A stretch of DNA of 64,000 bases from an uncultured Candidatus Saccharibacteria bacterium (lineage in GTDB: Bacteria > Patescibacteriota > WWE3 > 9FT-COMBO-53-11), in NCBI GenBank assembly GCA_964512075.1, contig CAZEID010000006.1:1024-65023 (forward strand), in the 5' to 3' direction. The number at the start of each line of letters is the position of its first letter. The first letter of the stretch is position 1. The translations under genes were made by a program, and so were the position numbers. Positions 4,851 to 62,587 of this stretch are shown one piece after another. Below the pieces are notes generated by a model. It did not search any database. It saw only the letters and a program-made list of their open reading frames with translations, and had not been told where the DNA came from.

Positions 4851-4979
4851 AGCATCAGCCCTATAAAAGTCAAGTATAGGGCTAAACTCTCCCAAAGACT
4901 CCAGATACGAACTGAAGTTTTTAGGAAAGCCCCTCACCTTTTTGAATTGCAAAGGTGAGGGGTCGCACCACTCTCGCTC

Positions 4980-5966
4980 TTACCTCACTGGCGTCGGAGT
5001 CGGCACACTCGGCGGATATTCCGTCGGGGTGGCTACCGGCGTCAGGGGAGGCAAACAATCCGGCCCGCAACTTTCCGTCGGGGTTGGCGGCGGAGTGGTC
5101 GGGGTAGGAGGAGGCAAAGTTGGCGTGGGCGTCGCCCGGGGCGGCTCCGTGGGCGGAGTCGTCGAGGGGACTGCCGGCGTCGCGGTCGGCGAGACCGGCA
5201 GACCGCAGACGATCTGAAACTTCACGACCGTCGCGTTCAGACGGGGATAAGCGTCTAGCCGAACCGCTACCCAAGAGGGTTCGGAACCGAAGCGGATCCC
5301 GTCCTCCTCGTCCGTTTCGAGCCGAGGAATCCAGACCGCACACCCGGCCGGCAAAGCCTTCTCGTCTACGCCCACCCAATAGGTCCCCGGAGGAACCTCA
5401 AAGGTTGTTGCGGCGATGAGAAATTCGTCGATGGTAACCATTTCTTCGGTTACCTGCCGCAGCGTCTCCCGAAGCTCTCCGTCCTCCCCGAAGGGAGAGA
5501 GGAGAATTGGGACCCCCGGCATCCGGCGCCAGATCCCGTAAGCGGTATCTAACCGAAGCGTTTCTACCCGAAGGTAGACGCGCTCGCTCTCCGCCACTGA
5601 CTCGGTCGCCGCGACCGCAGGAGCGGTCGCCGCCACTGCCGTCGGGGGCATTGCGGTCGGAAAGCGGTCGGAAGCAACCTCGCGCTCTCCTTGCGAAGCG
5701 AGAAAAACGTAGGCCGCCGTCAGAGCGACCGCCGCAAAACCCAGGATGCCCAACAGAAACAGCAAAAACTCCAGCGTCCGCGTTCTAGACACCGAAGGCG
5801 GCGCTTTCGCCTTCTTGGGCTGGGCTCGCTTCTTGGCGCTCCGGGCGGGCTGGCGACGGCTCTTCCACCGCTTTCGCCATCCCTCGAACTTGGCCTTTGC
5901 CCTCGAAACCAAGGACAAAAACCGATTCACTACAGCCCGGCGGGCAGACTTGGCCTTTTTGGCCAT
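4980..5966 (-). CDS. membrane-anchored protein with a Lys/Arg-rich N-terminus, one TM helix and a Pro/Thr-rich C-terminal tail
   Basis: N-terminus MAKKAKSARR...KKAKAPP, TM FLLFLLGILGFAAVALTAAYVFLA, tail PTPTLPPPTPTTPPPTPT. Strong RBS AAAGGAGG before the ATG. GC about 63-75%, with many spurious antisense ORFs. Confidence 0.5.
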   Translation of the reverse strand: MAKKAKSARRAVVNRFLSLVSRAKAKFEGWRKRWKSRRQPARSAKKRAQPKKAKAPPSVSRTRTLEFLLFLLGILGFAAVALTAAYVFLASQGEREVASDRFPTAMPPTAVAATAPAVAATESVAESERVYLRVETLRLDTAYGIWRRMPGVPILLSPFGEDGELRETLRQVTEEMVTIDEFLIAATTFEVPPGTYWVGVDEKALPAGCAVWIPRLETDEEDGIRFGSEPSWVAVRLDAYPRLNATVVKFQIVCGLPVSPTATPAVPSTTPPTEPPRATPTPTLPPPTPTTPPPTPTESCGPDCLPPLTPVATPTEYPPSVPTPTPVR

Positions 5967-9788: not shown

Positions 9789-9865
9789 GGGCGAATAGCT
9801 CAGCCGGTTAGAGCGCTGTCCTGATAAGACAGAGGTCCGTGGTTCGAATCCACGTTCGCCCACCA
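9789..9865 (+). tRNA. tRNA-Ile (anticodon GAT)
   Basis: 77-nt cloverleaf. Acceptor GGGCGAA/TTCGCCC, anticodon loop CTGATAA, T-loop TTCGAAT, encoded CCA. Confidence 0.85.
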
Positions 9866-10028: not shown

Positions 10029-10130
10029 TAGCGTATCTTCCCTCATCTCCTTTTGGCCGGTTATGCCAAAAGGCCTTATCTTCCGCCAAAGAAAGGCGGA
10101 AGAACGGAAGCTACGAAGTAACTCCTTAGA

Positions 10131-11690
<1,560 letters not shown>

Positions 11691-11716
11691 ATAAACGCGA
11701 AGCGTTTATAGCTTGT

Positions 11717-18308: not shown

Positions 18309-20885
18309 TTACAATCTTGCCCGGAGCCGGATCTCCTCCTCCACCTCCGCGGCGGGGCGAGTGTATTTCATCCGAGACTCCTCTTTAATCTGGGCAGCCC
18401 GGCGGGGATCTCGCGCAATGGCTTGAATCTGGGACCAGTCCGTCCGCATCCTAAACGGGATCGAGGGAACCCCATTAATCAACAAGCGGACGTAGGCTTG
18501 CCCGATGGCCGCATTGAGCAAATCCATCCGAGAGAAATCGGGGGAAACCTCGCTCTCAAGAAACTCGGCATCTTCCGCCCCAACTCGGAAAAGAATCTTG
18601 GTTCCCACGTTCCCAAAAACTGCCCGCTTGATATCTTCAGTCAGCTGACCAATAAACTGATTCGCCACAATTAGATTCAGCCGGTATTTCCGGGCCTCGG
18701 ATAGGATTTGGACGAAGTCGGGCGTCGCAAAGTTTTGGAATTCATCCACGTAAAGGTAGAAGTCCGGCCGCTGCTCTTCGGGTATCTCTACCCGCCCCAT
18801 GGCTGCTGTCAAAATCCGCGGCACTAAAATCAGCCCCAAAAAGTTGGAATTTTCCTCCCCAATCCTCCCTTTGGAGAGGTTCACTAATAGAACCTTTCGC
18901 TGATCCATTACCTCCCGGAAGCTGAAGGAGGATTTCCCCTGGCCGATGATGTTGCGCATCAGCTTTTCCGTCACAAACCGGTCGAACTTGGAGACGAAGT
19001 AGCCCAAGGTTTCGCTTTTGTGAAAGTCGGAAGTTTGAGCAAGCTCGTCAGTCCAATATTTCTTCACAATCGGATCCGTAATTAACGGGACCTTGCTAGC
19101 GGCAAAAACCGGGTCGGTCAGCAGGCGGAAAACTTCCACCAAGGTATTTTCCTTCTCGCTCATCGCTGTGAGCATCACATTCCGCACCGCCCGCTCCAAG
19201 CGGGGGCCCAAAATTCCGGTTCGGTTTGGATCATAAAGCTTGTAAAGGAGAGAAATAAAGGAGTTAATTACGAGATGTTTTCCTTCTTCTGTCTCCGCTT
19301 CCAAGATGTTGAGAGCCGGCGGCCGTTCTAAATCACCGGGATCGAAGTAAATTACATCGGCCTGGCGTTCTTTCGGGATCATTTGGAGAAGATCCTCCAC
19401 CGCGTCGCCATGCGGATCTACGAAACAAAGCCCCTCACCGGCGACGATATCTTGATAAGCCATAAACTTGAGCAACTCGCTTTTACCGGTTCCGGTCTGA
19501 CCGATGATGTAAGTATGCCGCCGGCGATCGTTTCGCTGCAGATAGACCGGTACTTCTATCCCCCGCGAGGACGCTCGACCAAGGTAGAGACCCGCAGTCG
19601 GCAGATCTAAGGGAATCGCCCCGGTTTTGGCCCCCAACCACTTAATGTTCGGCGTTGCTACCCACTTGTTGGGCAGGTGGAAAAGCGTCGCCAGCTCCTC
19701 GCTCGAAAAGACCGTCCAGTGCATAAAGCGCGGAACATGCCGGTAGAGAAAATCCACCATAAAGGACTTTTTAAAGAGGGCTTTCTTAACAGCAAAACCC
19801 GCTAGCTGTGGCGCGGAGAATTGGCTCAAACTGGTCACAATGCTGGAGAGTTGGAGATCGGCCGAAGCTTTCGTCGGCGCGACGGTCACAATCCTGATCA
19901 GCGCATAAAATCCGGGTTTATTGACCTTCCGGGCAATCGCTTCCTCAGTTTCCTTTCCCAGAACAACCCGACTCTCTCCCTCCGGCTTTCTCTCCATTTC
20001 TTTCGCCTTTAAAATGAAGGCCTGGCCTTGGCGCTGCCAGCTGGCGTCAGCCGGAGAGACCACAATTTGGATCACCGCCGCCTCGCCTTGGGCCAGCTTG
20101 GTTAAAGCGGAGGTAATGGTGTTAAGGGAATCGGTCTCTTCGCCCAAATCTACGTACGTCCTAATTGGGTAATACTTTGGTCCAGTTGTTACAAGCTGAT
20201 TAAAAGAAACGTACCCTTCTTTTTGAAAAATGTCATACTCCTGAACTTCCTTAATCTCGGCACTGGGATAAGCCGCGTGCAGCTGTTTCTCCACTAAAGA
20301 ACAAACCTCGCGAGGAGAAACTACCACAAAATGGATATGCTCGTGGTCCGCTATAATTTCGAAACTTAAATTAATCTGGGGGACCCCCAAGGACAGCGGT
20401 CCTCCACCCCGGTGGAGCCCCGCAAGGGAAGTGAAAAATTGCTCGGCGGCACCCGCCCGAATCTCGCTGTCCCGCGGCACCAACACCTCCAAAAAGACTA
20501 AATCGGGTCCGCCTTTCCGAGAAGCAACGGGGCCCGCCAGTTTCTGCCACTGCCGCTTCCACCATTCCCCCAACCAGCGGAAGGCACTCGTAATCGGAAG
20601 CTTCTGAGATTCCTTTACCTCCTGAACAGTTAAGGGTGGGGCAACCAGCCCCGGCTCAATCGGGGAACCGGGAAGAGAAGGCGGAGTTGGCGAGACTGGG
20701 GACGGCGAAGCTGGAAGGGAGGGCGGAGGAACGGAAGAGGAAGGTAAGGCCGCGGGACTCTCAGGAGCGGTTTCGGCCTCCTTGCCTACCTCCGACGGGG
20801 AGGGCTTTTCGGGAGCAGGAAAACCGGGGATTTTTTCGGGAGTACCGGAGATTGGCTCTGTTTCCACACCTCTATCCTGCCACAA
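18309..20885 (-). CDS. FtsK/HerA/VirD4-superfamily P-loop ATPase (type IV coupling-protein-like) with a Pro/Ser-rich N-terminal region
   Basis: 858 aa. N-terminal ~90 aa is low-complexity PAPEKPSPSE...PPSLPGSP. Walker A IIGQTGTGKSE, Walker B LYVDEFQNF, then LNLIVANQ. No TM helices are evident. Confidence 0.6.
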   Translation of the reverse strand: MWQDRGVETEPISGTPEKIPGFPAPEKPSPSEVGKEAETAPESPAALPSSSVPPPSLPASPSPVSPTPPSLPGSPIEPGLVAPPLTVQEVKESQKLPITSAFRWLGEWWKRQWQKLAGPVASRKGGPDLVFLEVLVPRDSEIRAGAAEQFFTSLAGLHRGGGPLSLGVPQINLSFEIIADHEHIHFVVVSPREVCSLVEKQLHAAYPSAEIKEVQEYDIFQKEGYVSFNQLVTTGPKYYPIRTYVDLGEETDSLNTITSALTKLAQGEAAVIQIVVSPADASWQRQGQAFILKAKEMERKPEGESRVVLGKETEEAIARKVNKPGFYALIRIVTVAPTKASADLQLSSIVTSLSQFSAPQLAGFAVKKALFKKSFMVDFLYRHVPRFMHWTVFSSEELATLFHLPNKWVATPNIKWLGAKTGAIPLDLPTAGLYLGRASSRGIEVPVYLQRNDRRRHTYIIGQTGTGKSELLKFMAYQDIVAGEGLCFVDPHGDAVEDLLQMIPKERQADVIYFDPGDLERPPALNILEAETEEGKHLVINSFISLLYKLYDPNRTGILGPRLERAVRNVMLTAMSEKENTLVEVFRLLTDPVFAASKVPLITDPIVKKYWTDELAQTSDFHKSETLGYFVSKFDRFVTEKLMRNIIGQGKSSFSFREVMDQRKVLLVNLSKGRIGEENSNFLGLILVPRILTAAMGRVEIPEEQRPDFYLYVDEFQNFATPDFVQILSEARKYRLNLIVANQFIGQLTEDIKRAVFGNVGTKILFRVGAEDAEFLESEVSPDFSRMDLLNAAIGQAYVRLLINGVPSIPFRMRTDWSQIQAIARDPRRAAQIKEESRMKYTRPAAEVEEEIRLRARL

Positions 20886-20900
20886 AATTGACCCGGGAAG

Positions 20901-21710
20901 CTACTTGACTAAACCTCGAACCCAATCTAGGAACTTGCTAAGCCCGCTGCGGGCCGCGGCCTGCTCCTCTTCAATCACTTGCTGAAAGGATTCAAATGGC
21001 AGGGCACCTTGGACAACTTTGGCAGTAATGGTTCCGGAGGAGCGCGTTTGGCCAATAAAGAAGGTGGGCGTCCCAATCCCTTGAGAAAAAACACTTGAGT
21101 AATTCTGGGCGATTTCGGTAATGTAGGCCAAATCCGCAGCCACCTCGTCTCTGAATTCCTCGGTGGAGAGGCAGTGGTTAAACGCGGCCGCATCCAACCC
21201 GATCTTGGTGGCGGCGGCGGCGTAATCCGCCTCCTTCATCCCCTCCCCGTTGGAGGCGGTTCGGGCAAAGATTTCGTCGTGGTAAGAGAAATATCCCTCA
21301 TCTCCCTTTTGATCGCGGGCGCAATTGGCCGCCAAGGCCTCTTTGGTCGCGACTGGATCATGGAAAGACAAGGGAAGATCGCGGTAGACAAACCTAACCT
21401 TGCCGGTGTCGATGTACTGTTCCTTGATCTTGGGAAGAGTTTCCGCAAAGAAGCTCTTGCAGAACGGGCACTCGTAGTCAGAAAACTCAATTATCGTAAC
21501 TGGGGCATTAGGATCACCGAGACCGGGGTCGTCGTCCACCGAAATTTCCACCTCTCCCGCCACCGCGCCCGTGGGGAAACTGTCGGAAATTCTCCCCAAG
21601 CCACCGGTGGTAAGAATCGCGGCGGCCACTATCATCCCACTCAACAAGATCGCGGAAGGCAAAAAAAGGGGCCGGTAACGGGTGATCCAGTCGGAAGGCG
21701 CTTTAGCCAT
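20901..21710 (-). CDS. DsbA-like thiol:disulfide oxidoreductase (membrane-anchored, thioredoxin fold)
   Basis: N-terminal TM helix. Active site SDYECPFCKSF. Confidence 0.7.
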   Translation of the reverse strand: MAKAPSDWITRYRPLFLPSAILLSGMIVAAAILTTGGLGRISDSFPTGAVAGEVEISVDDDPGLGDPNAPVTIIEFSDYECPFCKSFFAETLPKIKEQYIDTGKVRFVYRDLPLSFHDPVATKEALAANCARDQKGDEGYFSYHDEIFARTASNGEGMKEADYAAAATKIGLDAAAFNHCLSTEEFRDEVAADLAYITEIAQNYSSVFSQGIGTPTFFIGQTRSSGTITAKVVQGALPFESFQQVIEEEQAAARSGLSKFLDWVRGLVK

Positions 21711-21732: not shown

Positions 21733-22764
21733 TCAGGCGGAAGGTGCTAACTCCTTGTTAACCAGATTCACCGGAGGTTTTCCTGCCAATACATCTAACA
21801 CCGCTTGGGCCGCCAGTACCGCCATTGCGCCCCGGGCCTCGATCGTCGCCGAAGCAGTGTGGGGCGTCAGCACGACATTGGGAAGCTCCGCTAATCCCGG
21901 CGCCAGGTTGGGCTCATTCTCGTAAACGTCCAGCGCGGCTCCTTTAATCGTGCCCGCCTTGAGGGCTCCCACCAACGCGGCTTCATCCACAATTGGCCCC
22001 CGCGAAGTATTGACAAGATAAGCCGTCGGTTTCATTAGTTTTAGCCGGTCAGCATTGATTAAGTGGCGGGTCTCTGGAAGGAGCGGAACATGGATTGAAA
22101 CGAAGTCCGCCTCCTTCAGCAGAGCGTCTAAGCCCCGAAACTCTGCCCCAAACTCCTGCTCAAACTCGGTGGAGGGTTGAATATCATAGTAGAGTACCTG
22201 CATCCCCATCCCTTTGGAAGCGATCTCGGCCACCCGGGAGCCGATTCGGCCCAGCCCGACTACTCCCAAAACCTTTCCCTGGAGCTCGGTTCCCAGCAGC
22301 AGCTCCGGCTCCCAGCCCCGATACTTCCCTTGGCGGGTGAACTGATCGGATTCCGGAATCCGGCGGGCAATTGCCAAAAGCAGGGCGAAGGTGTGCTCCG
22401 CCACCGCTTCGGTCAGTACCCCCGGAGTGTTAGAAACGTAGATCTTGCGCTGAGTCGCGGCCGGAACGTCAATGTTGTCGTAGCCGACGGCGTAGTTGGA
22501 GATCAGCTTGAGTTGGGGACCGGCGGCGTCCATCACTTCCCCATCGATCTTGTCGGTCAGGAGGGAGAGGATCGCTTCCGCTCCCTTAACCCGTTCCAGC
22601 AGCACCTCGCGAGGAATCACCCGATCCTCTTCCCAAACCGAAAAATCGGTCCCTTTTAGGAGATCCAAACCAGCCCGGGGAATTTTGCGAGTGACGAAAA
22701 CCTTGGGCATCAGAACTAGAATAACAGAATTACCAGAGCCAGAATAACAGAATTTGGTAGCCAA
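21733..22764 (-). CDS. D-isomer-specific 2-hydroxyacid dehydrogenase (glyoxylate/hydroxypyruvate reductase or glycerate dehydrogenase type)
   Basis: NAD-binding GVVGLGRIGSRVA. Catalytic R...E...H pattern (TPHTAS). Confidence 0.75.
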   Translation of the reverse strand: MATKFCYSGSGNSVILVLMPKVFVTRKIPRAGLDLLKGTDFSVWEEDRVIPREVLLERVKGAEAILSLLTDKIDGEVMDAAGPQLKLISNYAVGYDNIDVPAATQRKIYVSNTPGVLTEAVAEHTFALLLAIARRIPESDQFTRQGKYRGWEPELLLGTELQGKVLGVVGLGRIGSRVAEIASKGMGMQVLYYDIQPSTEFEQEFGAEFRGLDALLKEADFVSIHVPLLPETRHLINADRLKLMKPTAYLVNTSRGPIVDEAALVGALKAGTIKGAALDVYENEPNLAPGLAELPNVVLTPHTASATIEARGAMAVLAAQAVLDVLAGKPPVNLVNKELAPSA

Positions 22765-22800
22765 TCTCTATCGATACCCACATCAAGCCGCATTTTACTG

Positions 22801-22820
22801 TTTTACAGAAAACTGTAAAA
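22801..22820. promoter_or_regulatory. 20-bp palindrome TTTTACAG-AAAA-CTGTAAAA (copy 1), preceded by an extra half-site TTTTACTG
   Basis: Read directly. Downstream of the TrpR/YerC-like gene. Confidence 0.5.
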
Positions 22821-22887
22821 CGGTAGAAACTAACCGAATAATCGATTACAACCTAATAAATCGGGTTAAAATTGGGTTAAAACCAAG

Positions 22888-23298: not shown

Positions 23299-23335
23299 TT
23301 GCGCTAATTTTACACCCCCATTTCCAAATTTCCAG

Positions 23336-23355
23336 TTTTACAGAAATCTGTAAAA
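23336..23355. promoter_or_regulatory. 20-bp palindrome TTTTACAG-AAAT-CTGTAAAA (copy 2), in the promoter region of the TrpR/YerC-like gene
   Basis: Read directly. 38 bp upstream of the start codon, in the divergent intergenic region. Confidence 0.5.
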
Positions 23356-23518
23356 CAGTAGAGAATTGCTAAGGAGAAGGGTTTAGAAACCGAAGTAGGT
23401 TAGAATCAAAATCCACCCGAGGGAATTTTGCGGGTCACGAAAACTCTCGCCATCAAGAGCAGAACATCGGATACGGGGTATCAGAGGCAAGCAGATTTCT
23501 AATTGACGAGAATCTTCC

Positions 23519-32788: not shown

Positions 32789-35323
32789 GTGCGATCCTTC
32801 CCAAAGATCGAAAAGCCGTTCCAGACTTCCCCCGCGACTCTGTTCGAGGTCCTGCAAACCAGTCCGCAGGGGCTGACGGAAGCGGAAGCGCGGTCCCGTT
32901 GGGAAGAGCTTGGCCCCAACCAAATCGAACTCAAAAAGCGGCGGACCGCCGTTGCGATTCTGTTTTCCCAACTTCAAAACTGGCTAATGCTGGTACTGAT
33001 CGCCGCCGCGTTGGTTTCGTTTTCACTGGGCGAAAGGGTAGACTCCTTGGTAATCCTGGGAATTGTCCTTCTGAGTATCCTTTTCGGTTTCTTCCAAGAA
33101 TATCGGGCCGAAAGAACTCTCGAAAGTTTAAAGAAATTCATCTCCCATCAGGCCCGAGTCCTCCGGGACGGGCAGGTAAAGAAGATTAATGCCGCTCTTC
33201 TTACCGTCGGGGATATCGTTCTCGTACGGTTAGGTGACCGCATCCCGGCCGATCTCCGGCTGCTGGAAGCGCATAATCTTACGACCGACGAGATGCTTAT
33301 CACAGGAGAATCGCTCCCGGCGGTAAAAGCGCCGGGGCCGCTACGGCTCACCGATCCCGCCGTGGCCGAGCAGAAGAACATGCTTTTCGCCGGCAGCACG
33401 GTCTCCTCCGGGGAGGGCCGGGGAGTCGTAGTCGCGGTCGGAGCCGCCACTTACCTGGGCCAAACCGCAAAACGCCTAGAACAACCGGAACCCCCTACCG
33501 AGTTTCAGAAACAACTCCGGGCCTTCAGCCGCTTTCTCCTAGGGATAATCCTGGCTCTAACGGTCTTTGTCTTTCTCGCTAACGCCCTTCTCGGAAAAGG
33601 CTATCTCAATTCCTTCCTGTTCGCGGTCGCCTTGGCAGTGGGGGTTACTCCGGAACTGCTCCCAATGATTATCACCGTCACCCTTTCTCAAGGAGCTCTT
33701 CAAATGGCCCGCCTCAAAGTCGTGGTAAAGAAGCTGGTTTCCGTGGAAGACCTCGGCAATATCGACACTCTCTGCACCGACAAAACCGGAACTCTAACTA
33801 TCGGAAAGTTCACTCTTAAGAACTATTTGGACGATCACTTCGCAACCAGTGAGAAGGTTCTTCTCGATGCACTAGCGTGCGTTAACGCGGGGCGGGCGGG
33901 GGCGTTGCCCCCCAGTGACTTAGACCGGGCAATCTGGGAAGCACCGGTCAGCAAACGCCTCCGTCCGCAGTTGGAGAAAACAGAGATTTTGGGCGAAAAC
34001 GAATTTGATTTTGACCGTCGGAGGGAAAGCGTTCTCCTTCAAGTTGGGGAAAGCCGCCGCCTAATTGTAATGGGAGCACCCGAATCGGTCTTCGCCCAAT
34101 GCCAATTTTCTTCCTCTGCCGAGAAAAGAAAGGCCTGGAATTGGATTGAGAAAGCCGAGAATCAAGGGAATCGGATAATCGCCTTGGCTACCAAGGAAAC
34201 TACCAAAACCCGAGTTACCTCCCGCGATGAGACGAATCTCTCTTGGGAGGGTTTATTGGTCTTCACGGACCCGATTAAAGGGACCGCGCAGAAGTCTTTG
34301 GACCTTTTCCGCCAGCTGGGGGTCAACATTAAAATCATCAGCGGCGACAGTCCGCGAGTAGTTAAGCGGGTGGCGATGGCGGTCGGATTGGCCCGAGAGA
34401 ACACCCCGGTCGCGCTCGGCAGCGAACTGGAGAAGCTTAACCCCGCCCAATTTGAAGAATGGGCGCGGAAGTACACCCTCTTTGCCCGAACCACTCCGAC
34501 CCAAAAGGAACGGCTGATCGCCAGTCTAAATCGGGAGGGACATATCGTCGGTTTCCTCGGCGACGGGTTTAACGATGCTCCCGCGCTGAAATCTGCCGAT
34601 GTCGGAATCGCAGTCGACAACGGCTCGGAGACTGCCAAAGAAGCAGCGGATATCGTTTTACTAGAGAAGGATCTTGCCGTTCTGGCACAAGGAATTGAAG
34701 CGGGGCGAAAAATTTTCGGCAATATCAACAAATACATCTTCAACACTATTAGTGCCAACTATGGAAACATGTTCACGGTCGCAATCTCCTCACTGTTCCT
34801 AAAATTTATTCCTCTCCTCCCAACCCAGATTCTGCTGAACAACTTCATCAGCGACATTCCCTTGCTGGCGATTGCAACCGACAACGTGGATGAGGATTTT
34901 GTAAAAAAGCCGAAGCGTTGGAATATCCCGCTGATCGGGCGCTTCATGGTCTACTTTGGTTCTCTTAGCTCAATCTTTGACTTCGCCACCATTCTCCCCC
35001 TGCTCTACGTAAGCCAACTAAGCCCCGGACCCTTCCGAACCGCCTGGTTCATCGAGTCCGCTATCTCCGAAATCATCATCACTTTTGCCATCCGCACCCG
35101 AAAACCGTTCCAGAAGAGCCGCCCGAGCGGGTGGTTGCTGGGATTAAGCCTCGGCTCCCTTGCAGCGGTTTTAGCCCTTCCCTACACCCGGGCGGGAAAA
35201 GTGCTCTTCAACTTCTCCTCCCTCTCTCTACCGGTTCTCGGGTGGATCGCTCTCGTCCTGCTGACTTACTTTACTGCGGCCGAAATTGGCAAAAAGCGGT
35301 TCTTCCGCAAGTTTGAGATATAG
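32789..35323 (+). CDS. mgtA: magnesium-transporting P-type ATPase (MgtA type)
   Basis: DKTGTLT phosphorylation site, LGDGFNDAPALK hinge, TGES actuator motif, 10 TM. GTG start is uncertain. Confidence 0.8.
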   Translation: MRSFPKIEKPFQTSPATLFEVLQTSPQGLTEAEARSRWEELGPNQIELKKRRTAVAILFSQLQNWLMLVLIAAALVSFSLGERVDSLVILGIVLLSILFGFFQEYRAERTLESLKKFISHQARVLRDGQVKKINAALLTVGDIVLVRLGDRIPADLRLLEAHNLTTDEMLITGESLPAVKAPGPLRLTDPAVAEQKNMLFAGSTVSSGEGRGVVVAVGAATYLGQTAKRLEQPEPPTEFQKQLRAFSRFLLGIILALTVFVFLANALLGKGYLNSFLFAVALAVGVTPELLPMIITVTLSQGALQMARLKVVVKKLVSVEDLGNIDTLCTDKTGTLTIGKFTLKNYLDDHFATSEKVLLDALACVNAGRAGALPPSDLDRAIWEAPVSKRLRPQLEKTEILGENEFDFDRRRESVLLQVGESRRLIVMGAPESVFAQCQFSSSAEKRKAWNWIEKAENQGNRIIALATKETTKTRVTSRDETNLSWEGLLVFTDPIKGTAQKSLDLFRQLGVNIKIISGDSPRVVKRVAMAVGLARENTPVALGSELEKLNPAQFEEWARKYTLFARTTPTQKERLIASLNREGHIVGFLGDGFNDAPALKSADVGIAVDNGSETAKEAADIVLLEKDLAVLAQGIEAGRKIFGNINKYIFNTISANYGNMFTVAISSLFLKFIPLLPTQILLNNFISDIPLLAIATDNVDEDFVKKPKRWNIPLIGRFMVYFGSLSSIFDFATILPLLYVSQLSPGPFRTAWFIESAISEIIITFAIRTRKPFQKSRPSGWLLGLSLGSLAAVLALPYTRAGKVLFNFSSLSLPVLGWIALVLLTYFTAAEIGKKRFFRKFEI

Positions 35324-40685: not shown

Positions 40686-40809
40686 GTGAAGCAAAACTAA
40701 CCCCGCATTCGGAGGTATTCTGGTGCGGGGCGTATTTTTGATCCCCAGAGTAATCTAGGAAGTCAGGCTGAAGCCAAGTTATCAGACACTGCGGAAGCCA
40801 AAATTACGG

Positions 40810-40829
40810 TTTTACAGAAAACTGTAAAA
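40810..40829. promoter_or_regulatory. 20-bp palindrome TTTTACAG-AAAA-CTGTAAAA (copy 3), followed by an extra half-site CTGTAAC
   Basis: Read directly. About 17.5 kb from the TrpR/YerC-like gene, between a small ORF and rpiB. Confidence 0.5.
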
Positions 40830-40911
40830 CTGTAACTTCCACTGTCGAAATTTGAAATGAAATTAGGGAGGGCAACCCAAAAGAAGTGGAAGGAAGGAGC
40901 AGAAGGAAAAG

Positions 40912-56882: not shown

Positions 56883-59519
56883 CTACCTAGTAATTTTCGC
56901 AAGCAGGACGCGTTTTAAATTGCTGTATGCTTTGAGAGCGTCAAAGATGACAAGGATAAGGAGGCCCGCCAAGCCCGCTTCCAGCCAATGCCGATAATCA
57001 ATGGCAGCGGTCTCAAAGACACTTCTAGCCCCATCCCAATAGACGATAATGAGAGTCGCCGCTAAGGAAACCGCCGAAGCTCCGGCGAGATATGGATTTA
57101 CAAACGGCGACCTTGTCAGCGTCGGATACCTAAAAGACCTAAAGTTGAAAGCACTCGCAATCTCGATAACGATGAGGGTTACTAAAGCGGTAGTTCGGAC
57201 CTCCGAAACGCCGTAGCCCAGCAGATTAAACGAAATGTAGTAAACCGCCAGCGTAATCACCCCCATTAAAAGCCCGTTGAAAATCATCAGCTTAAAAAGG
57301 GGCCGGCTCAAGATGTGGGTGTCTTTTCTCGGCGGCTCGTCCATTACATCTTTCGAATAGGGGTTCAACCCCAGAGTAATGGCAGGAAGGTTGTCTGTGA
57401 TTAAGTTCATGAAGAGGATGTGCAGGGGAAGAAGGAGAGGCGTTGCCCAACCAAAAACGGGGGCGAGAGCCGCCCCAGTGAAGATAATCAACAACTCAGA
57501 GAAATTACAGGAGAGCTGGTAACTGGCAAACTTCCGAATGTTATTGAATATCGTTCTCCCCTCCTTAACTGCGGAAACGATGGTGGCGAAATTGTCATCT
57601 TTCAAAATAAGGTCGGATACCGAACGGGTCACATCCGTTCCGCTTTTCCCCATCGCCACACCGATATGGGCTTCTTTTAGAGCGGGGGCATCATTAACCC
57701 CGTCCCCCGTCATCGTCACCACCTCCCCAAGCTCCTTAAGCGCTCGAACAATCCTCAACTTATGCTCGGGACGGACGCGAGCGAAAATAACGGTATTTTT
57801 GATCACCTGAACCAACTCCTGGTCGCTCAACTCGTCGATCTGTGAACCTACCAACGCCGCGCCTTCCAGCCCGATCTGCTTGCCAATTGAGATCGCAGTC
57901 TCTTTGCTGTCCCCAGTTATCATCTTCACCGCGATCCCTGCCGACCGGCAATCCTCCAGAGCTTCCGCCACTTCCTCCCGAGGGGCATCTTCCATTCCCA
58001 CAATACCCAAGAGGACGAGATTATTCTCCGGGTACTCCTTAGTAGAGCCACTGGCGGGTTTGTAGGCTAGCATCAACGTCCTTAAAGTTTGAGAGTTCAA
58101 TTTTTGGTTGACGGCGATTATTTCATCTTTTCGCCCTTTGGTGAGCTTCTTCTCCTCTCCACCAACCTTTTCTTTAGCGCACCTTTCAAGCAAAATCTCC
58201 GGCGCCCCCGCGGCAAACACCAACCTCCGACCGTCAATTTCGACCAAGCAAGACATCATCTTCCTCTCAGAGCTGAAAGGAACCTCGTGCAACCTTTTAA
58301 CGTTTAGACCTTCCGGAAACACTCCCGCCTTTGCAGCGACGATCAAGAGCGCCCCCTCCGTAGGAGTTCCCAGAATTCTATACTCAGCATCCTGGCCAGT
58401 CCGCTGGATATGGGCGTTATTAGCGATTGCCGCCGCCTTTAGCAAAAAACTAAGATTTTCATCGCGGTGAGGGTCCACCTCCTCTCCCCGGTGAATAAAG
58501 CTCCCCCGTCCCACGTAACCAGAGCCAGTAACCTTATAAAACTTGTTGTTGGAAAAAATAGTCTTAACAGTCATTTCCCCTTTTGTTACTGTTCCGGTCT
58601 TATCAGCGCAGATAACGGTCGTTTCTCCTAAAGTTTCAATGATCGACATGCGGTTGACGATCGCGTTTTTTCGGGCCATTCTAACCATTCCGGTTGCCAA
58701 AGTCGTGGTCAGTACTACGGGAAAACCTTCGGGGAAAGCCGAAACAGAAAGAGCGATCGCCAAAACCATTACTTCGGTTAGCAATTGATAATTAACAATT
58801 TCGGCCCTAAAAATCATCAAACCGGCAGTCAAAAGAGAGACCGTTACCGCTACTGTCGCCATATATTTGGCAATTTGATTAACCTTTTTCTGCAAAGGCA
58901 TCTCTTTTTCGGCCCGGGAAATCATCGCAGCGATCTCTCCAAAACGAGCACTCATCCCGATGTGCTGCACCCGAGCCACACATCTTCCTCGAACAATAAA
59001 AGTACCCATAAATAGCTTATTGGCGTCCTCCTTTTCCGCCTCGGAAGACTTCTTAACCTCGACGGACTCTCCGGTCAACACCGACTCGTCTACCCTAAGC
59101 TCGTTCGCTTCAAGAACCACACAATCGGCGGGTACTCTTTCGCCGCTTCCTAGAATGACAATGTCCCCTGGTACCAAATCTCTTGAAAGGATATCTTTTT
59201 CTTTTCCGTCTCTAATAACAGTGGAGAAAGGCATCATCATTCCCCGCAGGGTTTCGATGGCTTTCTCGGCCTTATATTCTTGGATAAATCCCGAAAGCAC
59301 TACGGCCGCAACGACCGCAAGAATCGTACACGCAGTAACATCCTTACCGACAATAAAAGACAGGGCCGCGGCTACCAAAAGCAAATAAATAATGAAGTTC
59401 TTCCTTATTTGCCTTACCAAGATCGTGAAGGGGGTAGCCTTCCCGACCTCCTTGATTTCGTTATCGCCGTACTGCTCTTTAAGTTTTTGGGCTTCTTTCT
59501 CGGTCAAGCCTCGGATCAT
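56883..59519 (-). CDS. cation-transporting P-type ATPase (type II, Ca2+-ATPase-like)
   Basis: DKTGTVT, TGDGVNDAPALK and TGES motifs, 10 TM, 878 aa. Confidence 0.8.
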   Translation of the reverse strand: MIRGLTEKEAQKLKEQYGDNEIKEVGKATPFTILVRQIRKNFIIYLLLVAAALSFIVGKDVTACTILAVVAAVVLSGFIQEYKAEKAIETLRGMMMPFSTVIRDGKEKDILSRDLVPGDIVILGSGERVPADCVVLEANELRVDESVLTGESVEVKKSSEAEKEDANKLFMGTFIVRGRCVARVQHIGMSARFGEIAAMISRAEKEMPLQKKVNQIAKYMATVAVTVSLLTAGLMIFRAEIVNYQLLTEVMVLAIALSVSAFPEGFPVVLTTTLATGMVRMARKNAIVNRMSIIETLGETTVICADKTGTVTKGEMTVKTIFSNNKFYKVTGSGYVGRGSFIHRGEEVDPHRDENLSFLLKAAAIANNAHIQRTGQDAEYRILGTPTEGALLIVAAKAGVFPEGLNVKRLHEVPFSSERKMMSCLVEIDGRRLVFAAGAPEILLERCAKEKVGGEEKKLTKGRKDEIIAVNQKLNSQTLRTLMLAYKPASGSTKEYPENNLVLLGIVGMEDAPREEVAEALEDCRSAGIAVKMITGDSKETAISIGKQIGLEGAALVGSQIDELSDQELVQVIKNTVIFARVRPEHKLRIVRALKELGEVVTMTGDGVNDAPALKEAHIGVAMGKSGTDVTRSVSDLILKDDNFATIVSAVKEGRTIFNNIRKFASYQLSCNFSELLIIFTGAALAPVFGWATPLLLPLHILFMNLITDNLPAITLGLNPYSKDVMDEPPRKDTHILSRPLFKLMIFNGLLMGVITLAVYYISFNLLGYGVSEVRTTALVTLIVIEIASAFNFRSFRYPTLTRSPFVNPYLAGASAVSLAATLIIVYWDGARSVFETAAIDYRHWLEAGLAGLLILVIFDALKAYSNLKRVLLAKITR

Positions 59520-59581
59520 TAAAACAGTTTAGCAACAAAGACCGTTGGAAGGAACTGCTACCCATAATCCTATAGTGCCTA

Positions 59582-59610
59582 TTGACAGAAGGGAACCTCA
59601 CTGGTATACT
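59582..59610 (+). promoter_or_regulatory. near-consensus promoter TTGACA-17-TATACT
   Basis: Read directly. About 190 nt upstream of the GTG start at 59801. Confidence 0.5.
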
Positions 59611-59800
59611 TTCCTGCTGAACCTTAATAACCGAATCGGTTTGACCTCTAAGGTGGGAAGAGTTGGGCGCGGATTTCGCCGTACTCAACTCAACCCCTGA
59701 TTAGGGGAACCAAAACCAAAAAAAGAAGGGAGGATGGAAGAGGGTATTACTAGGCTTGCCCAGCCCGCGCCGTAACCGAGCATCTACCAAGGAGAAAGCT

Positions 59801-61423
59801 GTGAAAACGAAAGGACTGCGTTTCTTTCTGGTTTTGGGTGTGCTGGCGGCCCTGTTCGCCTTCGGCGCTACGAGCGCCGGAGCCACGGGGGGAGGCGGCT
59901 ACGACCTGAATGTGGACGTCGACGCCGAGTGTGAGACCTATACGGTCTCAGCCAACCCCGCGAACTGGGACGAAGACAACACCGGACAGAGCCGGATCCA
60001 GTGGCGGCCAGTTCCGGGAACGCTGACTGGAACCGGCACGTTCGCTTTCGGCGAATTCGATTCCTCCGCAAGTTGGGAGGTTTCGGTCCAATATCGCAAA
60101 TACACCAGCTCGAACTGGGGCTTCACCTGGACCGCTACCAGCGTCTACCACACCGAGACGGATAGCGGCAGTGTGAGCCGAAAAGGGCACTGCGACGTGG
60201 TGATTTGCCACGCTACCGGTAGCCAGAGCAATCCCTACATCCAGATCACGGTGGATGACCGCGCCGTGGATGGAGTTGGGAGCTCGGACCACAACCGGGA
60301 CGGGCACCAGAACGGTGAGGACATCATCCCGCCGGGCTTCTGGGATGCGGACGGCCGGAACTGGACGGCGGAAGGTATCGCCATCTGGGAGAACGGCTGC
60401 GAAATCCCCGAGCCTCCGCCGCCTCCGGTCGAGGGATGCACTGATCCGTTGGCGCTCAACTACAACCCTGAGGCCACGGTTGACGATGGCAGTTGCGAGT
60501 ACCCACCTCCGGTGCAGGTCTGCGAGGATCCCGCCGCGCTGAATTATGGCGAGGAGGGCGAGTGCCAATACCCGCCGCCAACCTACACCATCGAGGACCT
60601 TTCAGACTGTGATGGCTTCGCCTTCTTGTTTTACCAAGATGGCGAGCCGATCGGCGGTGGGAGCGGTCCCTGGAACGGGCGGACACTCCTGTACGTCGTG
60701 CTCCCGCCGGACAGTCTGGAGTTCTTCGCCACTGCAGCACCGCCGGACGATCATACGGTCGTGGGACAGGTGGTCAGGCCTGACTACTGCGAACCGGGCG
60801 AACCGCCGTGCCCGCAGTGCGTTTGCCCAACCTGCGGCCCACCCGTCCAGGAAACGATGGGTGAATCGATGGGCATCGCCTGGTTTTCGGACGTCCCCTG
60901 CGACGCCGGGACCTGTCCGCTCTTCGCGGGCCAGGACCACAACCCCTGGGTGAAGCTGTGGACAATGATCCCAAGCTTCTTCACCCACGAAGGTGTGACT
61001 GCCCCGCTAACGGCCGTCACGACTGCCAACGGGGAGGTCTGCTACGAAGCGTTCTTCCGGGATGGAGACTCCATTGGGGACTTCATCCTCTGGGGTCCGA
61101 ACGGGGAGGGCGATCGCATCCGGGGTCACTTCCCGGCCAGCGATCCGCAACCGCACAAGTACAGCGCCTGCTCGATCTTCCCGAGCTGGTGTGATACCCG
61201 CCTCGGGGAAGACGGCCAAGGCTACGCGCTCTGGCTGCCCGGACACACCGTGTGGGACTGGGCCCAGTTTCTGCTCCAGAACGGGTTCTTCCCGGGCGAG
61301 GAGAATCGGGCCACGCTGGCGCTGGGGTGGGCAATGGCCCTGCGCGAGAACGGCAACGCCGCCCTGCTCACTTGGAACGGCGACCTGAGGAACCTTCCGC
61401 CGTTTCCGCTTCCGCCCCGGTAA
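59801..61423 (+). CDS. secreted cysteine-rich protein with two tandem ~25-aa Cys-containing repeats
   Basis: GTG start with RBS AAGGAG 6 nt upstream. Signal peptide MKTKGLRFFLVLGVLAALFAFGATSAGA. Repeats CTDPLALNYNPEATVDDGSCEYPPP and CEDPAALNYGEEGECQYPPP (60437-60580). About 20 Cys in total. GC about 62-68% against a ~53% background. Confidence 0.6.
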   Translation: MKTKGLRFFLVLGVLAALFAFGATSAGATGGGGYDLNVDVDAECETYTVSANPANWDEDNTGQSRIQWRPVPGTLTGTGTFAFGEFDSSASWEVSVQYRKYTSSNWGFTWTATSVYHTETDSGSVSRKGHCDVVICHATGSQSNPYIQITVDDRAVDGVGSSDHNRDGHQNGEDIIPPGFWDADGRNWTAEGIAIWENGCEIPEPPPPPVEGCTDPLALNYNPEATVDDGSCEYPPPVQVCEDPAALNYGEEGECQYPPPTYTIEDLSDCDGFAFLFYQDGEPIGGGSGPWNGRTLLYVVLPPDSLEFFATAAPPDDHTVVGQVVRPDYCEPGEPPCPQCVCPTCGPPVQETMGESMGIAWFSDVPCDAGTCPLFAGQDHNPWVKLWTMIPSFFTHEGVTAPLTAVTTANGEVCYEAFFRDGDSIGDFILWGPNGEGDRIRGHFPASDPQPHKYSACSIFPSWCDTRLGEDGQGYALWLPGHTVWDWAQFLLQNGFFPGEENRATLALGWAMALRENGNAALLTWNGDLRNLPPFPLPPR

Positions 61424-61492
61424 GTAAAGGAGCTTGAGACCCAAGGTGCTTTTGAGCAATCAAAAGCACCTTTTTCATTTTCGGCGGAAATT

Positions 61493-62587
61493 TCAAACCA
61501 AACGAAGGGTAACAATAACACCAAGAACGGACAGGACGATACCGGCAATCAGGTGCAAGAGCCGAATATTTCGCTCCTTCCATTCGGCGGCTTTCTCGAC
61601 CGTGGAGTAACCCCAGAAAATCAGCCCCAAGATTAGCAAGAGCGGGAGGACGAAAAAGACGTTGTAGAGCAGGAGATATGGCACTGCCGCCATTAGCGTC
61701 AAACTTTTCGCCAATAGACCCAGAACAAAGAAGTAAGGACCACCGGTGCAGGGAAGCTCAAAAAGTATCACCACAAAACCCACCAGAAACGCCCCTAGCG
61801 GGGAGGTAGCTTTGTAGATGATGTCCTTAAGAGGGTGCCGCCAGCTCCGCGGAATCTCCATCGCAAATCCCCCGCCCCCGTACCAAAAGTAATCTTTGAT
61901 GTTCAAAAGCCCCAAGACAATCGCCAGAATTCCCACCAGCCGAGAAACGATGTCCGCCAGGCCCGATACCTGAATCGCCGAGAAGAGCCCCAAGCCGAAG
62001 AGGAAATAAGCCAAATAGATCGAAGCCGTAAAGGCCAACCCTGCCGCCAGCGCCCGCTTCCGGCTACCGGCACCGAGGAGAAACGCGGAAAGCAGAATCA
62101 GAAGCACGGCGATCGCACAGGGGTTGATTGAATCCACTAGCGCGGCCCCAATCACGGTTAAGAGAGTGGGAGCACCTAAAGTCTTCTCCGGAGGTGCCTC
62201 CCCCAACGGGCAGGCCACTTGAGGATGGGCGAGAACTTCACCTTCAAGTTCGGCAAGAATCGAAATATCACCAGTCAGATAACGGTCGCCGATAAAAACA
62301 GTTGGCACTCCCCAGGGCTGGGGAACATTATAGGCGGTTAAAACTTCTTGGAACTTCGCGGCGTTTTTTTGGTCATGCCAAACCTCAAAACGCCGGATTT
62401 TGAGACCCGGGTACCTTTGCTCCAGCTCTTCCAAAAAGGGTTTAACATTGGCACAGTGCGGGCACTCTTCACCATAGAAGTAGTAGACGCAAGCCGTCGG
62501 CTCTTGGGCCGAAACGGCACGCGCTCCCCGACCCAGGAAAACCGCGAGAAAAAGAAATAAAAGCAAACCCAACTTCCTTCGCATCAA
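61493..62587 (-). CDS. thioredoxin-like domain fused to a CcdA/DsbD-type transmembrane thiol-disulfide transporter
   Basis: Signal peptide, CPHC thioredoxin motif, then a multi-TM region with conserved Cys (CAIAVLL ... LPCTGGPYF). Confidence 0.65.
   Translation of the reverse strand: MMRRKLGLLLFLFLAVFLGRGARAVSAQEPTACVYYFYGEECPHCANVKPFLEELEQRYPGLKIRRFEVWHDQKNAAKFQEVLTAYNVPQPWGVPTVFIGDRYLTGDISILAELEGEVLAHPQVACPLGEAPPEKTLGAPTLLTVIGAALVDSINPCAIAVLLILLSAFLLGAGSRKRALAAGLAFTASIYLAYFLFGLGLFSAIQVSGLADIVSRLVGILAIVLGLLNIKDYFWYGGGGFAMEIPRSWRHPLKDIIYKATSPLGAFLVGFVVILFELPCTGGPYFFVLGLLAKSLTLMAAVPYLLLYNVFFVLPLLLILGLIFWGYSTVEKAAEWKERNIRLLHLIAGIVLSVLGVIVTLRLV

What the first reader, a model, noticed from the sequence alone, without database searches (positions are those of the whole stretch)
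59582..61423. Compositionally foreign gene for a secreted, cysteine-rich tandem-repeat protein with its own consensus promoter
The gene runs about 62-68% GC against a ~53% background, which produces many spurious antisense ORFs. It has a TTGACA-17-TATACT promoter, a long leader, a signal peptide, about 20 cysteines and two tandem C-x-D-P-x-A-L-N-Y...D-D-G-S/E-C-x-Y-P-P-P repeats. This points to horizontal acquisition of an extracellular disulfide-bonded protein, possibly an adhesin or a toxin-like effector. It lies head-to-tail with a Trx-CcdA/DsbD-type disulfide transporter gene, and a DsbA-like gene is also present at 20901-21710. That is consistent with a need for extracytoplasmic disulfide formation.
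Basis: partly seen in the sequence, partly recalled or inferred. Interest (0 to 1): 0.5.

Follow-up and report, generated by a model that had tools for sequence, protein, structure and literature searches.

The report
Mosaic secreted cysteine-rich surface protein gene
This is a real gene for a secreted, cysteine-rich, modular protein that keeps the same chromosomal slot in related uncultured bacteria (closest named relative: candidate division WWE3), so its high GC is a long-standing property of the gene rather than a sign of recent foreign origin; its conserved C-terminal domain matches no described family or solved structure.

Summary
The sequence features are real. There is a 540-aa ORF (GTG 59801 to stop 61423) with a signal peptide and 19 Cys. 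Its TTGACA-17-TATACT promoter has an extended -10 TG and is the best sigma-70 match in the 64 kb. It has a 183-nt leader, a terminator hairpin, and GC 0.636 / GC3 0.776 against 0.541 / 0.619 for the other ORFs (z about 3).

Recent horizontal acquisition is not supported. Two related metagenome contigs carry a gene with the same C-terminal domain in the same slot (P-type ATPase | gene | Trx-CcdA | DUF4349). Promoter, RBS and GTG start are conserved there, and the GC3 excess is equal or larger (0.81-0.85). The C-terminal domain diverges about as much as the flanking orthologues (65-75% against 60-84%).

The protein is a mosaic: beta-rich N-terminal module, His-rich "ICH" module, two CxDPxALNY...C mini-repeats, an unmatched linker, and a ~195-210-aa C-terminal domain. 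That domain has only 32 cluster representatives among 1.84 billion. It has no Pfam, NCBIfam, PHROG or PDB relative, although its model is confident.

Only the N-terminal part differs between orthologues. The Trx-CcdA neighbour is convergent, not head-to-tail, but redox-gene adjacency recurs in 4 of 7 lineages. Most likely this is a strongly expressed surface or adhesion protein; that function is inferred, not shown.

The parts
59582..59610 (+). Sigma-70-type promoter TTGACA-17 nt-TATACT with extended -10 TG
   Evidence: 11 of 12 matches, TG present. It is the best match in the whole 64 kb. The same TTGACA-17-TAT(A/C)CT with TG is conserved in the syntenic loci L003 and L004.
59617..59800 (+). 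Predicted 5' leader of about 183 nt, including RBS AAGGAG at 59789-59794
   Evidence: Length is inferred from the promoter and the conserved GTG start. Orthologue leaders are 161 and 189 nt. No Rfam family matches. Folding energy is no better than shuffles, z = -0.16. Only local hairpins are partly conserved.
59801..61423 (+). CDS of 540 aa (GTG start) with 19 Cys; GC 0.636, GC3 0.776
   Evidence: An identical protein, P0001, is present in a JGI metagenome contig.
59801..59884 (+). Signal peptide (res 1-28, MKTKGLRFFLVLGVLAALFAFGATSAGA)
   Evidence: Read from the sequence: basic n-region, hydrophobic core, and an A-x-A-like SAGA site. No predictor was run.
59885..60181 (+). N-terminal beta-rich module A (res 29-127)
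60182..60415 (+). 'ICH' module (res 128-205): ICHATGS..NPY..DHNRDGHQNGEDIIPPG..DGRNW..G.AIW.NGC
   Evidence: It is 60-77% identical to the core of small secreted or anchored proteins, including ones labelled Roizmanbacteria and Acidimicrobiales. Alignment A6. No Pfam or PDB sequence match.
60437..60580 (+). Two Cys-flanked mini-repeats with Pro-rich spacers (res 213-260)
   Evidence: Read from the sequence. The same repeat occurs in more than 100 proteins, including Bacteroidota T9SS cargo and archaeal proteins. Multi-repeat relatives give only partial PsaN (PF05479) hits to profile positions 74-102. The target gives none.
60581..60787 (+). Middle segment (res 261-329) with no detectable homologue and a low-confidence model
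   Evidence: pLDDT is below 50. No relatives cover it.
60788..61420 (+). Conserved C-terminal domain (res 330-540): CPxCG .. C-x(2-11)-C .. R.R .. KYSxCS .. SDW .. WA..L..G.L.LP
   Evidence: Alignments A1 and A4. There are 32 representatives in 1.84 billion proteins, and the domain is nearly always at the extreme C-terminus. AF2 pLDDT is mostly above 90 for res 351-540. No Pfam, NCBIfam, PHROG or PDB relative.
61443..61482 (+). Intrinsic terminator hairpin (13 bp stem) with a T-tract, lying between the convergent genes
   Evidence: The T-tract follows the hairpin only on the + strand.
61493..62587 (-). Convergent neighbour: thioredoxin-like domain (CPHC) fused to a CcdA/DsbD-type membrane domain
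   Evidence: Pfam hits to SfLAP, DsbD_TM, DsbD_2, Glutaredoxin and Thioredoxin are all below their curated cut-offs but mutually consistent. CPHC and two membrane 'PC' motifs are read from the sequence. The adjacency is conserved in L003, L004 and L011. L002 and L007 have a DsbD-like gene plus VKOR instead.

Best explanation
The gene is a vertically inherited, probably strongly expressed gene of an uncultured small-genome bacterium. The only named genome carrying the C-terminal domain is a candidate division WWE3 MAG. It encodes a Sec-exported, disulfide-stabilised, modular cell-surface or secreted protein.

Shown:
- The slot between the P-type ATPase gene and the Trx-CcdA/DUF4349 genes is kept in relatives, together with the promoter, RBS, GTG start and C-terminal ~200-aa domain.
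- The N-terminal two thirds differ completely between orthologues. Here they are a beta-rich module, an ICH module and Cys mini-repeats. In relatives they are a different N-terminal domain plus Ig-like repeats. This indicates cassette replacement.
- The GC and GC3 excess is shared by the orthologues.

Inferred:
- The conserved C-terminal domain is the constant part that holds the protein at the cell envelope or carries its core function.
- The swappable N-terminal modules are displayed outward for binding, for example attachment to a partner cell or substrate.
- The conserved cysteines form structural disulfides, whose formation or isomerisation is served by the neighbouring Trx-CcdA (or DsbD-like plus VKOR) proteins.
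- The raised GC3 reflects a maintained gene-specific bias (expression-linked codon choice and/or recombination-associated GC bias, plus strand asymmetry), not recent foreign origin.
For: Synteny and conserved regulatory signals:
-.

Divergence:
- Flanking orthologues are 60-84% identical and the C-terminal domain 65-75%. The N-terminal part has no hit in the syntenic orthologue loci.

Composition:
- Orthologue GC3 is 0.854 (z 3.0) and 0.807 (z 2.9), against 0.776 (z 3.1) here.
- A protein that shares module A, in a 44% GC genome, is also GC3-elevated.

Expression signals:
- The promoter is the best sigma-70 match in the window.
- There is an AAGGAG RBS, a 161-189-nt leader in all three loci, and a strong terminator.

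Surface-protein logic:
- Proteins carrying the same N-terminal modules (P0009, P0017, P0033) end in a PATG/hydrophobic/basic anchor at the position where this protein has the C-terminal domain.
- The C-terminal domain lies at the extreme C-terminus in nearly all 32 family representatives, behind varied Ig-like repeats.

Redox neighbours:
- They recur in 4 of 7 lineages.

Background:
- WWE3 genomes are reported to encode sortases and many large surface proteins (PMC3812714).
Against: - No expression, localisation or binding data exist.
- The window holds only one ribosomal-protein gene (S1) to calibrate codon adaptation. S1 is not C-biased (C/(C+T) 0.54).
- Part of the C-ending excess comes from strand asymmetry.
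- Anchoring by the C-terminal domain is argued only from position and conservation. Its strongly conserved polar motifs (R.R, KYSxCS, SDW) would fit a catalytic or ligand-binding site equally well.
- Redox-gene adjacency is missing in 3 of 7 lineages. The genes are convergent, so they are not co-transcribed.
- The taxonomic assignment rests on one named MAG.
Confidence: 0.45

Rival explanations
1. The conserved C-terminal domain is an enzyme or effector, for example a hydrolase acting on a partner's or the cell's own envelope. The variable N-terminal modules are targeting or binding domains that deliver it.
For: - Columns conserved across 27-75% identity include E, R.R(D), K-Y-S-x-C-S, D, S-D-W and an invariant Cys. 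This pattern is typical of a pocket.
- The model is a compact, confident alpha/beta domain.
- Variable binding modules attached to a constant catalytic module are common in secreted enzymes.
Against: - The His of the 'PGH' motif is replaced by Gln or other residues in many members, so a Cys-His dyad is unlikely.
- The conserved Cys count (six, including the variably spaced one) allows all of them to be paired in disulfides.
Confidence: 0.25
2. One reading: the whole gene was recently acquired by horizontal transfer from a higher-GC donor and encodes an adhesin or toxin-like effector.
For: - GC, GC2 and GC3 are all about 3 sd above the other ORFs.
- Individual modules are unusually similar to proteins labelled as other phyla. 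The ICH module is 60-77% identical to Roizmanbacteria and Acidimicrobiales proteins.
- The N-terminal region is unrelated to that of the syntenic orthologues. Module-level exchange therefore did occur.
Against: - The same slot, promoter, RBS, start codon and C-terminal domain are present in relatives whose flanking genes are 60-84% identical.
- The GC3 excess is present in those orthologues too, and is larger there.
- The nearest recombinase gene is a conserved XerC/D-type gene, also present in the relatives.
- No homologue was found in viral contigs.
Confidence: 0.07
3. The C-terminal CPxCG ... C-x(n)-C cluster is a metal-binding (zinc-ribbon-like) or redox-active site kept reduced by the adjacent Trx-CcdA. 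The protein is then an extracytoplasmic metal or redox protein, not a structural surface protein. The His-rich ICH module would add further metal ligands.
For: - CPxCG is invariant, and a second Cys pair follows 20-25 residues later.
- Single family members give sub-threshold hits to several zinc-ribbon Pfam families.
- CcdA-type proteins export reducing power (established knowledge). The adjacency recurs.
- The ICH module has the conserved DHNRDGH motif.
Against: - Spacing of the second Cys pair varies from 2 to 11 residues, which is atypical for a zinc knuckle.
- All Pfam hits are far below threshold and inconsistent between members.
- The neighbouring Trx domain has CPHC, a DsbA-like oxidising motif (read from the sequence).
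- Other lineages pair the gene with VKOR, an oxidant.
Confidence: 0.1

Closest known systems
Gram-positive S-layer and major surface protein genes, such as Lactobacillus SlpA-type (comparison from my own knowledge, not tested here)
   Same: - A single gene with a near-consensus promoter, a long 5' leader, a strong RBS, a strong terminator and biased codon use.
- A conserved C-terminal part with a variable N-terminal exposed part.
   Different: - No SLH, CWB2 or other known anchoring domain.
- 19 cysteines, whereas S-layer proteins usually have few or none.
- Lattice formation and abundance are untested.
Sortase-type anchored modular surface proteins of CPR/Patescibacteria
   Same: The same N-terminal module A, an ICH-like module, Pro-rich spacers and CxDPxAxNY...DDGSC repeats in the same order.
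   Different: Those proteins end in PATG plus a hydrophobic segment and a basic tail. The target ends in a 200-aa globular domain, ...FPLPPR, with no hydrophobic tail.
Bacteroidota T9SS cargo proteins carrying the same Cys mini-repeat (PF18962 or PF13585 C-terminal domains)
   Same: They share the CxDPxAxNY...DDGSCxY mini-repeat, used between larger extracellular domains, and a constant C-terminal domain behind varied passenger domains.
   Different: - The C-terminal domain here is unrelated to the T9SS CTD: no PF18962 or PF13585 hit, and about 200 aa of alpha/beta rather than an ~80-aa beta-sandwich.
- The lineage is different and no T9SS genes were seen.
PsaN, photosystem I subunit N (Pfam PF05479)
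   Same: Multi-repeat relatives get partial matches to profile positions 74-102, a short Cys-containing motif.
   Different: The target has no hit at E up to 1. The matches cover under a quarter of the profile and come from summed repeats. There is no photosynthetic context.

Membership tests
   The target scores 394 bits, E 1.4e-113, over profile positions 2-207. The motif columns are seen.
PsaN (PF05479) | Match to the Pfam model at or above its gathering score, over most of the 132-position profile | tested here: not met
   No hit at E up to 1 in the target. Relatives match only positions 74-102 through summed repeats.
Sortase (LPXTG-type) substrates | C-terminal sorting motif followed by a hydrophobic segment and a basic tail | tested here: not met
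   The target ends ...NLPPFPLPPR with no hydrophobic stretch. P0009, P0017 and P0033 do have PATG plus a hydrophobic segment and a basic tail.
T9SS cargo | C-terminal Por/T9SS sorting domain (PF18962 or PF13585) | tested here: not met
   No Pfam or NCBIfam hit in the target.
S-layer proteins with known anchors (SLH, CWB2) | Presence of SLH, CWB2 or another recognised wall-binding repeat | tested here: not met
   No Pfam hit.
S-layer proteins with known anchors (SLH, CWB2) | High abundance and lattice formation on the cell surface | not testable with these tools
   Only indirect signals are available: the best promoter in the window, a long leader, the RBS, the terminator and GC3 bias.
Polymorphic toxin systems | Conserved N-terminal delivery region, variable C-terminal toxin tip and an adjacent immunity gene | tested here: not met
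   The polarity is opposite: the C-terminus is conserved and the N-terminus is variable. No toxin family hit.
Recently acquired genomic island gene | Atypical composition | tested here: met
   GC z = 3.0 and GC3 z = 3.1 against 45 ORFs.
Recently acquired genomic island gene | Absent from the same site in related genomes, with island-specific mobility genes at the borders | tested here: not met
   Present in the same slot in L003, L004 and L011, and in a partly rearranged version of it in L009 (Trx-CcdA missing). Flanks and promoter are conserved in L003 and L004. The nearby XerC/D-type gene is itself conserved at 84% in the relatives.
Diversity-generating retroelement target | Template/variable repeat pair and a reverse transcriptase nearby | tested here: not met
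   No repeat of any part of the gene elsewhere in the window. No reverse transcriptase was seen among the 41 larger ORFs scanned against Pfam. The C-terminus is conserved, not variable.
Zinc-ribbon or treble-clef Cys4 site | Two CxxC-type knuckles with fixed short spacing, and a match to a zinc-ribbon model | tested here: inconclusive
   CPxCG is invariant. The second pair is spaced 2-11 residues apart. Only scattered sub-threshold zinc-ribbon hits occur in single members. Metal binding is not testable here.
CcdA/DsbD family (the neighbour gene 61493-62587) | Match to DsbD_TM or DsbD_2 above the curated score, and two membrane-embedded Cys | tested here: inconclusive
   DsbD_TM scores 21.5 bits (cut-off 27.1), DsbD_2 20.6 (24.9) and SfLAP 28 (35). 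The orthologue in L004 reaches DsbD_2 26.2, above its cut-off of 24.9. NPC and LPC motifs and an N-terminal CPHC thioredoxin-like domain are read from the sequence.

The most novel reading that the evidence does not exclude
The ~200-aa C-terminal domain is a new protein fold. It is found in a narrow set of uncultured bacteria whose only named member is a candidate division WWE3 MAG. It would act as the constant 'base' of a single-copy, strongly expressed surface protein whose outward-facing modules are exchanged between lineages, and whose folding or function depends on a dedicated neighbouring thiol-disulfide system (Trx-CcdA, or DsbD-like plus VKOR). That would make it a candidate attachment organelle component for an episymbiotic lifestyle.
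Probability: 0.25. Interest if true: 0.55.

Novelty: new member of a known kind. Interest (0 to 1): 0.35.

Why it matters
The window's closest named relative belongs to candidate division WWE3, within the Candidate Phyla Radiation / Patescibacteria. These ultra-small bacteria are thought to live attached to other cells, yet their surface proteins are almost entirely uncharacterised.

This locus offers three things:
- A concrete, syntenic, probably highly expressed surface-protein gene with a constant, unannotated C-terminal domain and exchangeable display modules.
- A recurrent thiol-disulfide partner gene next to it.
- A worked example showing that a 3-sd GC/GC3 anomaly can be a stable, lineage-wide property of one gene rather than a mark of recent transfer.

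None of this overturns current ideas. It is a useful lead for anyone studying these bacteria's envelopes, and a candidate for a new domain entry in family databases.

Tried and rejected
- Pfam, NCBIfam, PHROGs and PDB sequence searches of the whole protein found nothing above noise.
- Pfam scans of 20 C-terminal domain members gave no shared family.
- PDB profile searches with the C-terminal (A4) and ICH (A6) alignments found nothing.
- afdb50 was not available.
- A first C-terminal-only structure prediction from 8 sequences was poor (pLDDT 66). The 39-row composite alignment fixed this.
- Riboswitch or leader RNA: no Rfam hit, folding z = -0.16, and only weak conservation of local hairpins in 3 sequences.
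- A short upstream ORF in the leader is not conserved in orthologues (read).
- DGR-type hypervariation: no template/variable repeats.
- Phage origin: no relative in viral contigs and no PHROG hit.
- An intragenomic donor for the N-terminal modules: no paralogous module elsewhere in the window.
- A genomic island bounded by tRNA and an integrase was rejected, because the XerC/D-type gene and the whole gene order are conserved in relatives.
- The literature search for the DDGSC motif, and for surface proteins of these bacteria, gave nothing specific.
- The third homologue search, with the broad profile, returned only 3 proteins and no taxon names.
- Codon adaptation against highly expressed genes could not be judged. 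The window has only S1 as a ribosomal-protein gene, and strand asymmetry confounds C-ending codon use.
Full report
**Observation check**

The region holds one long + strand ORF ending at 61423.
- The first in-frame start is TTG 59756. However, an AAGGAG box at 59789-59794 sits 6 nt before GTG 59801, and both are conserved in orthologous loci. I therefore take 59801-61423 as the CDS (540 aa).
- The promoter TTGACA-17-TATACT at 59582-59610 is real, matches 11 of 12 positions and has an extended -10 TG. A scan of both strands of the whole window ranks it first.
- From a predicted start near 59617 the leader is 183 nt.
- A 13-bp hairpin with a T-tract follows the stop codon at 61443-61482.
- The product begins with a typical Sec signal (MKTKGLRFFLVLGVLAALFAFGATSAGA) and has 19 Cys.

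**Composition**

- Gene GC is 0.636 against 0.541 +/- 0.032 for 45 other ORFs.
- GC3 is 0.776 against 0.619 +/- 0.051 (z 3.1), and GC2 is 0.514 against 0.412 (z 2.7).
- By position, about 55% of the GC excess comes from third positions, 36% from second positions (a Gly/Pro/Ala/Thr-rich protein) and 9% from first positions.
- The gene is the most extreme in the window but not unique. ORF 4980-5966(-) has GC 0.639.

**Orientation error**

The Trx-CcdA-like gene at 61493-62587 is on the minus strand. The two genes converge on the hairpin and are not head-to-tail.

**Synteny argues against recent transfer**

Two homologues were traced to long metagenome contigs: P0004 (84 kb, locus L003) and P0124 (52 kb, locus L004). 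Both lie in the same gene order as the window: TrpRS/TyrRS, XerC/D-type recombinase, tRNA_bind protein, small ORFs, Gmad2 protein, P-type ATPase(-), the gene(+), Trx-CcdA-like(-), DUF4349(-).

The intergenic region aligns. The following are kept:
- the -35 box, the 17-nt spacer with TG, and TAT(A/C)CT;
- AAGGAG and the GTG start;
- a leader of 161-189 nt.

Protein identities between the window and these loci:

| Protein | Identity |
|---|---|
| XerC/D | 84% |
| tRNA_bind | 72-76% |
| Gmad2 | 60-62% |
| Trx-CcdA | 71-81% |
| DUF4349 | 67-78% |
| Target C-terminal domain | 65-75% |
| Target N-terminal 329 residues | no hit |

The orthologous genes are compositionally anomalous in the same way, and more strongly. 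GC3 is 0.854 (z 3.0) in L003 and 0.807 (z 2.9) in L004, uniformly along the gene. The anomaly is an old, maintained property of this gene in the lineage, not a trace of recent import.

**What drives the bias**

- Relative to the other ORFs, the target prefers C over T at two-fold sites (0.78 against 0.50). It shifts specific codons: GGC up and GGG down, AGC up and TCC down, CCG up and CCC down. This is not a uniform GC rise.
- The + strand of this window is C-rich, and most of the few other + strand genes also show raised C/(C+T), four of five at 0.60-0.71. Strand asymmetry therefore explains part of the effect.
- The window has no set of highly expressed reference genes. S1 is unremarkable at C/(C+T) 0.54.
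- I cannot separate expression-linked selection from recombination-associated GC bias.

**Architecture**

The protein is a mosaic.
1. Signal peptide, res 1-28.
2. Module A, res 29-127.
   - It is beta-rich with 7 predicted strands at pLDDT about 64-86.
   - It is shared at 31-40% identity with P0009, P0017 and P0033.
3. 'ICH' module, res 128-205.
   - Motif: ICHATGS..NPY..DHNRDGHQNGEDIIPPG..DGRNW..G.AIW.NGC.
   - It is 60-77% identical to the core of small secreted or anchored proteins, including ones labelled Roizmanbacteria and Acidimicrobiales.
   - It has no Pfam or PDB relative.
4. A PEPPPPP spacer and two Cys-flanked mini-repeats, res 213-260.
   - This repeat type is widespread as a spacer module in Bacteroidota T9SS cargo and in proteins labelled archaeal.
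   - It gives only partial, summed PsaN (PF05479) hits in multi-repeat proteins, and none in the target.
5. An unmatched, low-confidence segment, res 261-329.
6. A C-terminal domain, res 330-540.

**The C-terminal domain**

A profile of 8 close sequences was searched against 1.84 billion cluster representatives. It found only 32 proteins at E up to 1e-3, with the domain at the extreme C-terminus in nearly all. The regions ahead of it are varied, often Ig-like repeats bounded by Cys.

Conserved features:
- CPxCG;
- a Cys followed by a second Cys 2-11 residues later;
- R.R(D), KYSxCS, a D, SDW, and WA..L..G.L.LP at the end.

With a 39-row composite alignment, AlphaFold2 models res 351-540 mostly above pLDDT 90, as an antiparallel beta-rich core followed by two helices.

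Searches for relatives of this domain:
- No Pfam, NCBIfam or PHROG family matches.
- Only one species-representative genome encodes it, a candidate division WWE3 MAG.
- No viral contig encodes it.
- Only five JGI metagenome contigs encode it.

**Neighbourhood**

Seven distinct lineages could be examined.
- In three, the gene is followed (convergently) by a Trx-CcdA-like gene and DUF4349: the window with L001 and L010; L003; L004 with L011.
- In one (L002, L007 and L012, which includes the WWE3 MAG), it is followed by a DsbD-like membrane protein plus VKOR. The DsbD-like protein is 40% identical to the window's CcdA membrane part.
- In one (L009 with L014), it is followed by DUF4349 without CcdA.
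- In two (L008 with L013, and the distant L006), there is no redox gene.

The Pfam scores of the window's neighbour are below the curated cut-offs. They are mutually consistent, however, and the protein has CPHC and two membrane 'PC' motifs. The association with extracytoplasmic thiol-disulfide proteins is thus recurrent but not universal.

The DsbA-like gene at 20901-21710 is real but lies 38 kb away.

**Interpretation**

Proteins with the same N-terminal module set (P0009, P0017, P0033) end in a PATG/hydrophobic/basic anchor where this protein has the globular C-terminal domain. Syntenic orthologues keep the C-terminal domain and replace everything in front of it.

Several signals point to a strongly expressed cell-surface protein with a constant base and exchangeable display modules:
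- the strongest promoter in the window, a good RBS, a conserved long leader and a strong terminator;
- persistent codon bias;
- no second copy of the C-terminal domain in the window or in the stretches fetched around homologues.

This is functionally comparable to Gram-positive S-layer or major adhesin genes, but it belongs to no known anchor family. That reading is inference.

The main rival is that the C-terminal domain is an enzyme or effector. The partly conserved His is replaced in many members, which argues against a Cys-His hydrolase. A smaller rival is a metal or redox site at the Cys cluster. Its variable spacing, the CPHC motif and VKOR neighbours argue instead for structural disulfides.

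Other negative results:
- The leader shows no riboswitch or exceptional structure.
- There is no DGR signature.

**Verdict**

- The central interpretation, horizontal acquisition, is not supported for the gene as a whole. Only N-terminal module exchange is evident.
- What is present is a new member of the known kind 'modular secreted surface protein'.
- It carries an unannotated, rare C-terminal domain that may be a new fold.
- Interest is moderate to low for a general specialist and higher for researchers working on the envelopes of these bacteria.

Noticed in passing
window 4980-5966 (-), next to 4242-4952 (-): A second gene is as GC-rich as the target (GC 0.639, GC2 0.578, GC3 0.708). It encodes a basic N-terminus, one hydrophobic segment and a Pro/Thr/Ala-rich tail, and has no Pfam hit. 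The gene downstream of it encodes a DUF11-domain protein with the lowest C/(C+T) in the window.
   Followed up: partly
window 56883-59519 (-): The P-type cation ATPase upstream of the target is only 37-42% identical to the ATPase at the same position in L003, L004 and L009, although the other flanking genes are 60-84% identical. It also has GC 0.494, among the lowest of the ORFs compared. This gene, rather than the target, may have been replaced. A second P-type ATPase lies at 32789-35323 (+).
   Followed up: partly
L003 9552-9716, L004 9577-9741, L009 1562-1726 (absent from window 59520-59580): A conserved 54-aa ORF with two CxxC pairs (zinc-ribbon-like) lies between the ATPase gene and the promoter in the related loci. 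It is missing from the window, where the intergenic region is about 200 nt shorter.
   Followed up: partly
window 10130-11694 (-): A complete 16S rRNA gene with no 23S or 5S gene within the 64 kb (an unlinked rRNA gene). A tRNA gene lies at 9789-9862 on the opposite strand.
   Followed up: no
window 22789-22825, 23324-23360, 40798-40834; also 22667-22728 and 23410-23471: A palindromic motif, TTTTACAGAAA(A/T)CTGTAAAAC, recurs three times in intergenic DNA. A 62-nt direct repeat (73% identity) flanks the 22.7-23.5 kb intergenic region. These may be operators or terminators.
   Followed up: no
window 18309-20885 (-) and 20901-21710 (-); L005 7587-12874: A VirD4/TraG-like coupling-protein homologue sits directly next to the DsbA-like gene in the window. 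In L005 a homologue (33.5% identity) sits directly upstream of P0033, the anchored protein that shares module A and the Cys repeats. An M23 peptidase gene lies two genes downstream of P0033. This hints at a type IV secretion or conjugation-like surface cluster.
   Followed up: no
P0173, P0180, P0190 (small Acidimicrobiales-type ICH proteins) versus target res 531-540: The small ICH-domain proteins end in ...FLPDVLPPSR, which resembles the target family's terminal ...LPLFPLPPR. It is unexplained whether this is a shared C-terminal processing or recognition motif or a coincidence.
   Followed up: no
window 35410 (+): The only other 11-of-12 sigma-70 promoter match in the window (TTGACA-17-TATATT). 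It lies just downstream of the second ATPase gene and faces a region with no large + strand ORF.
   Followed up: no
L008 2595-3116 (-): In one lineage a LAGLIDADG homing-endonuclease gene lies immediately downstream of the C-terminal-domain gene, in place of the redox gene.
   Followed up: no
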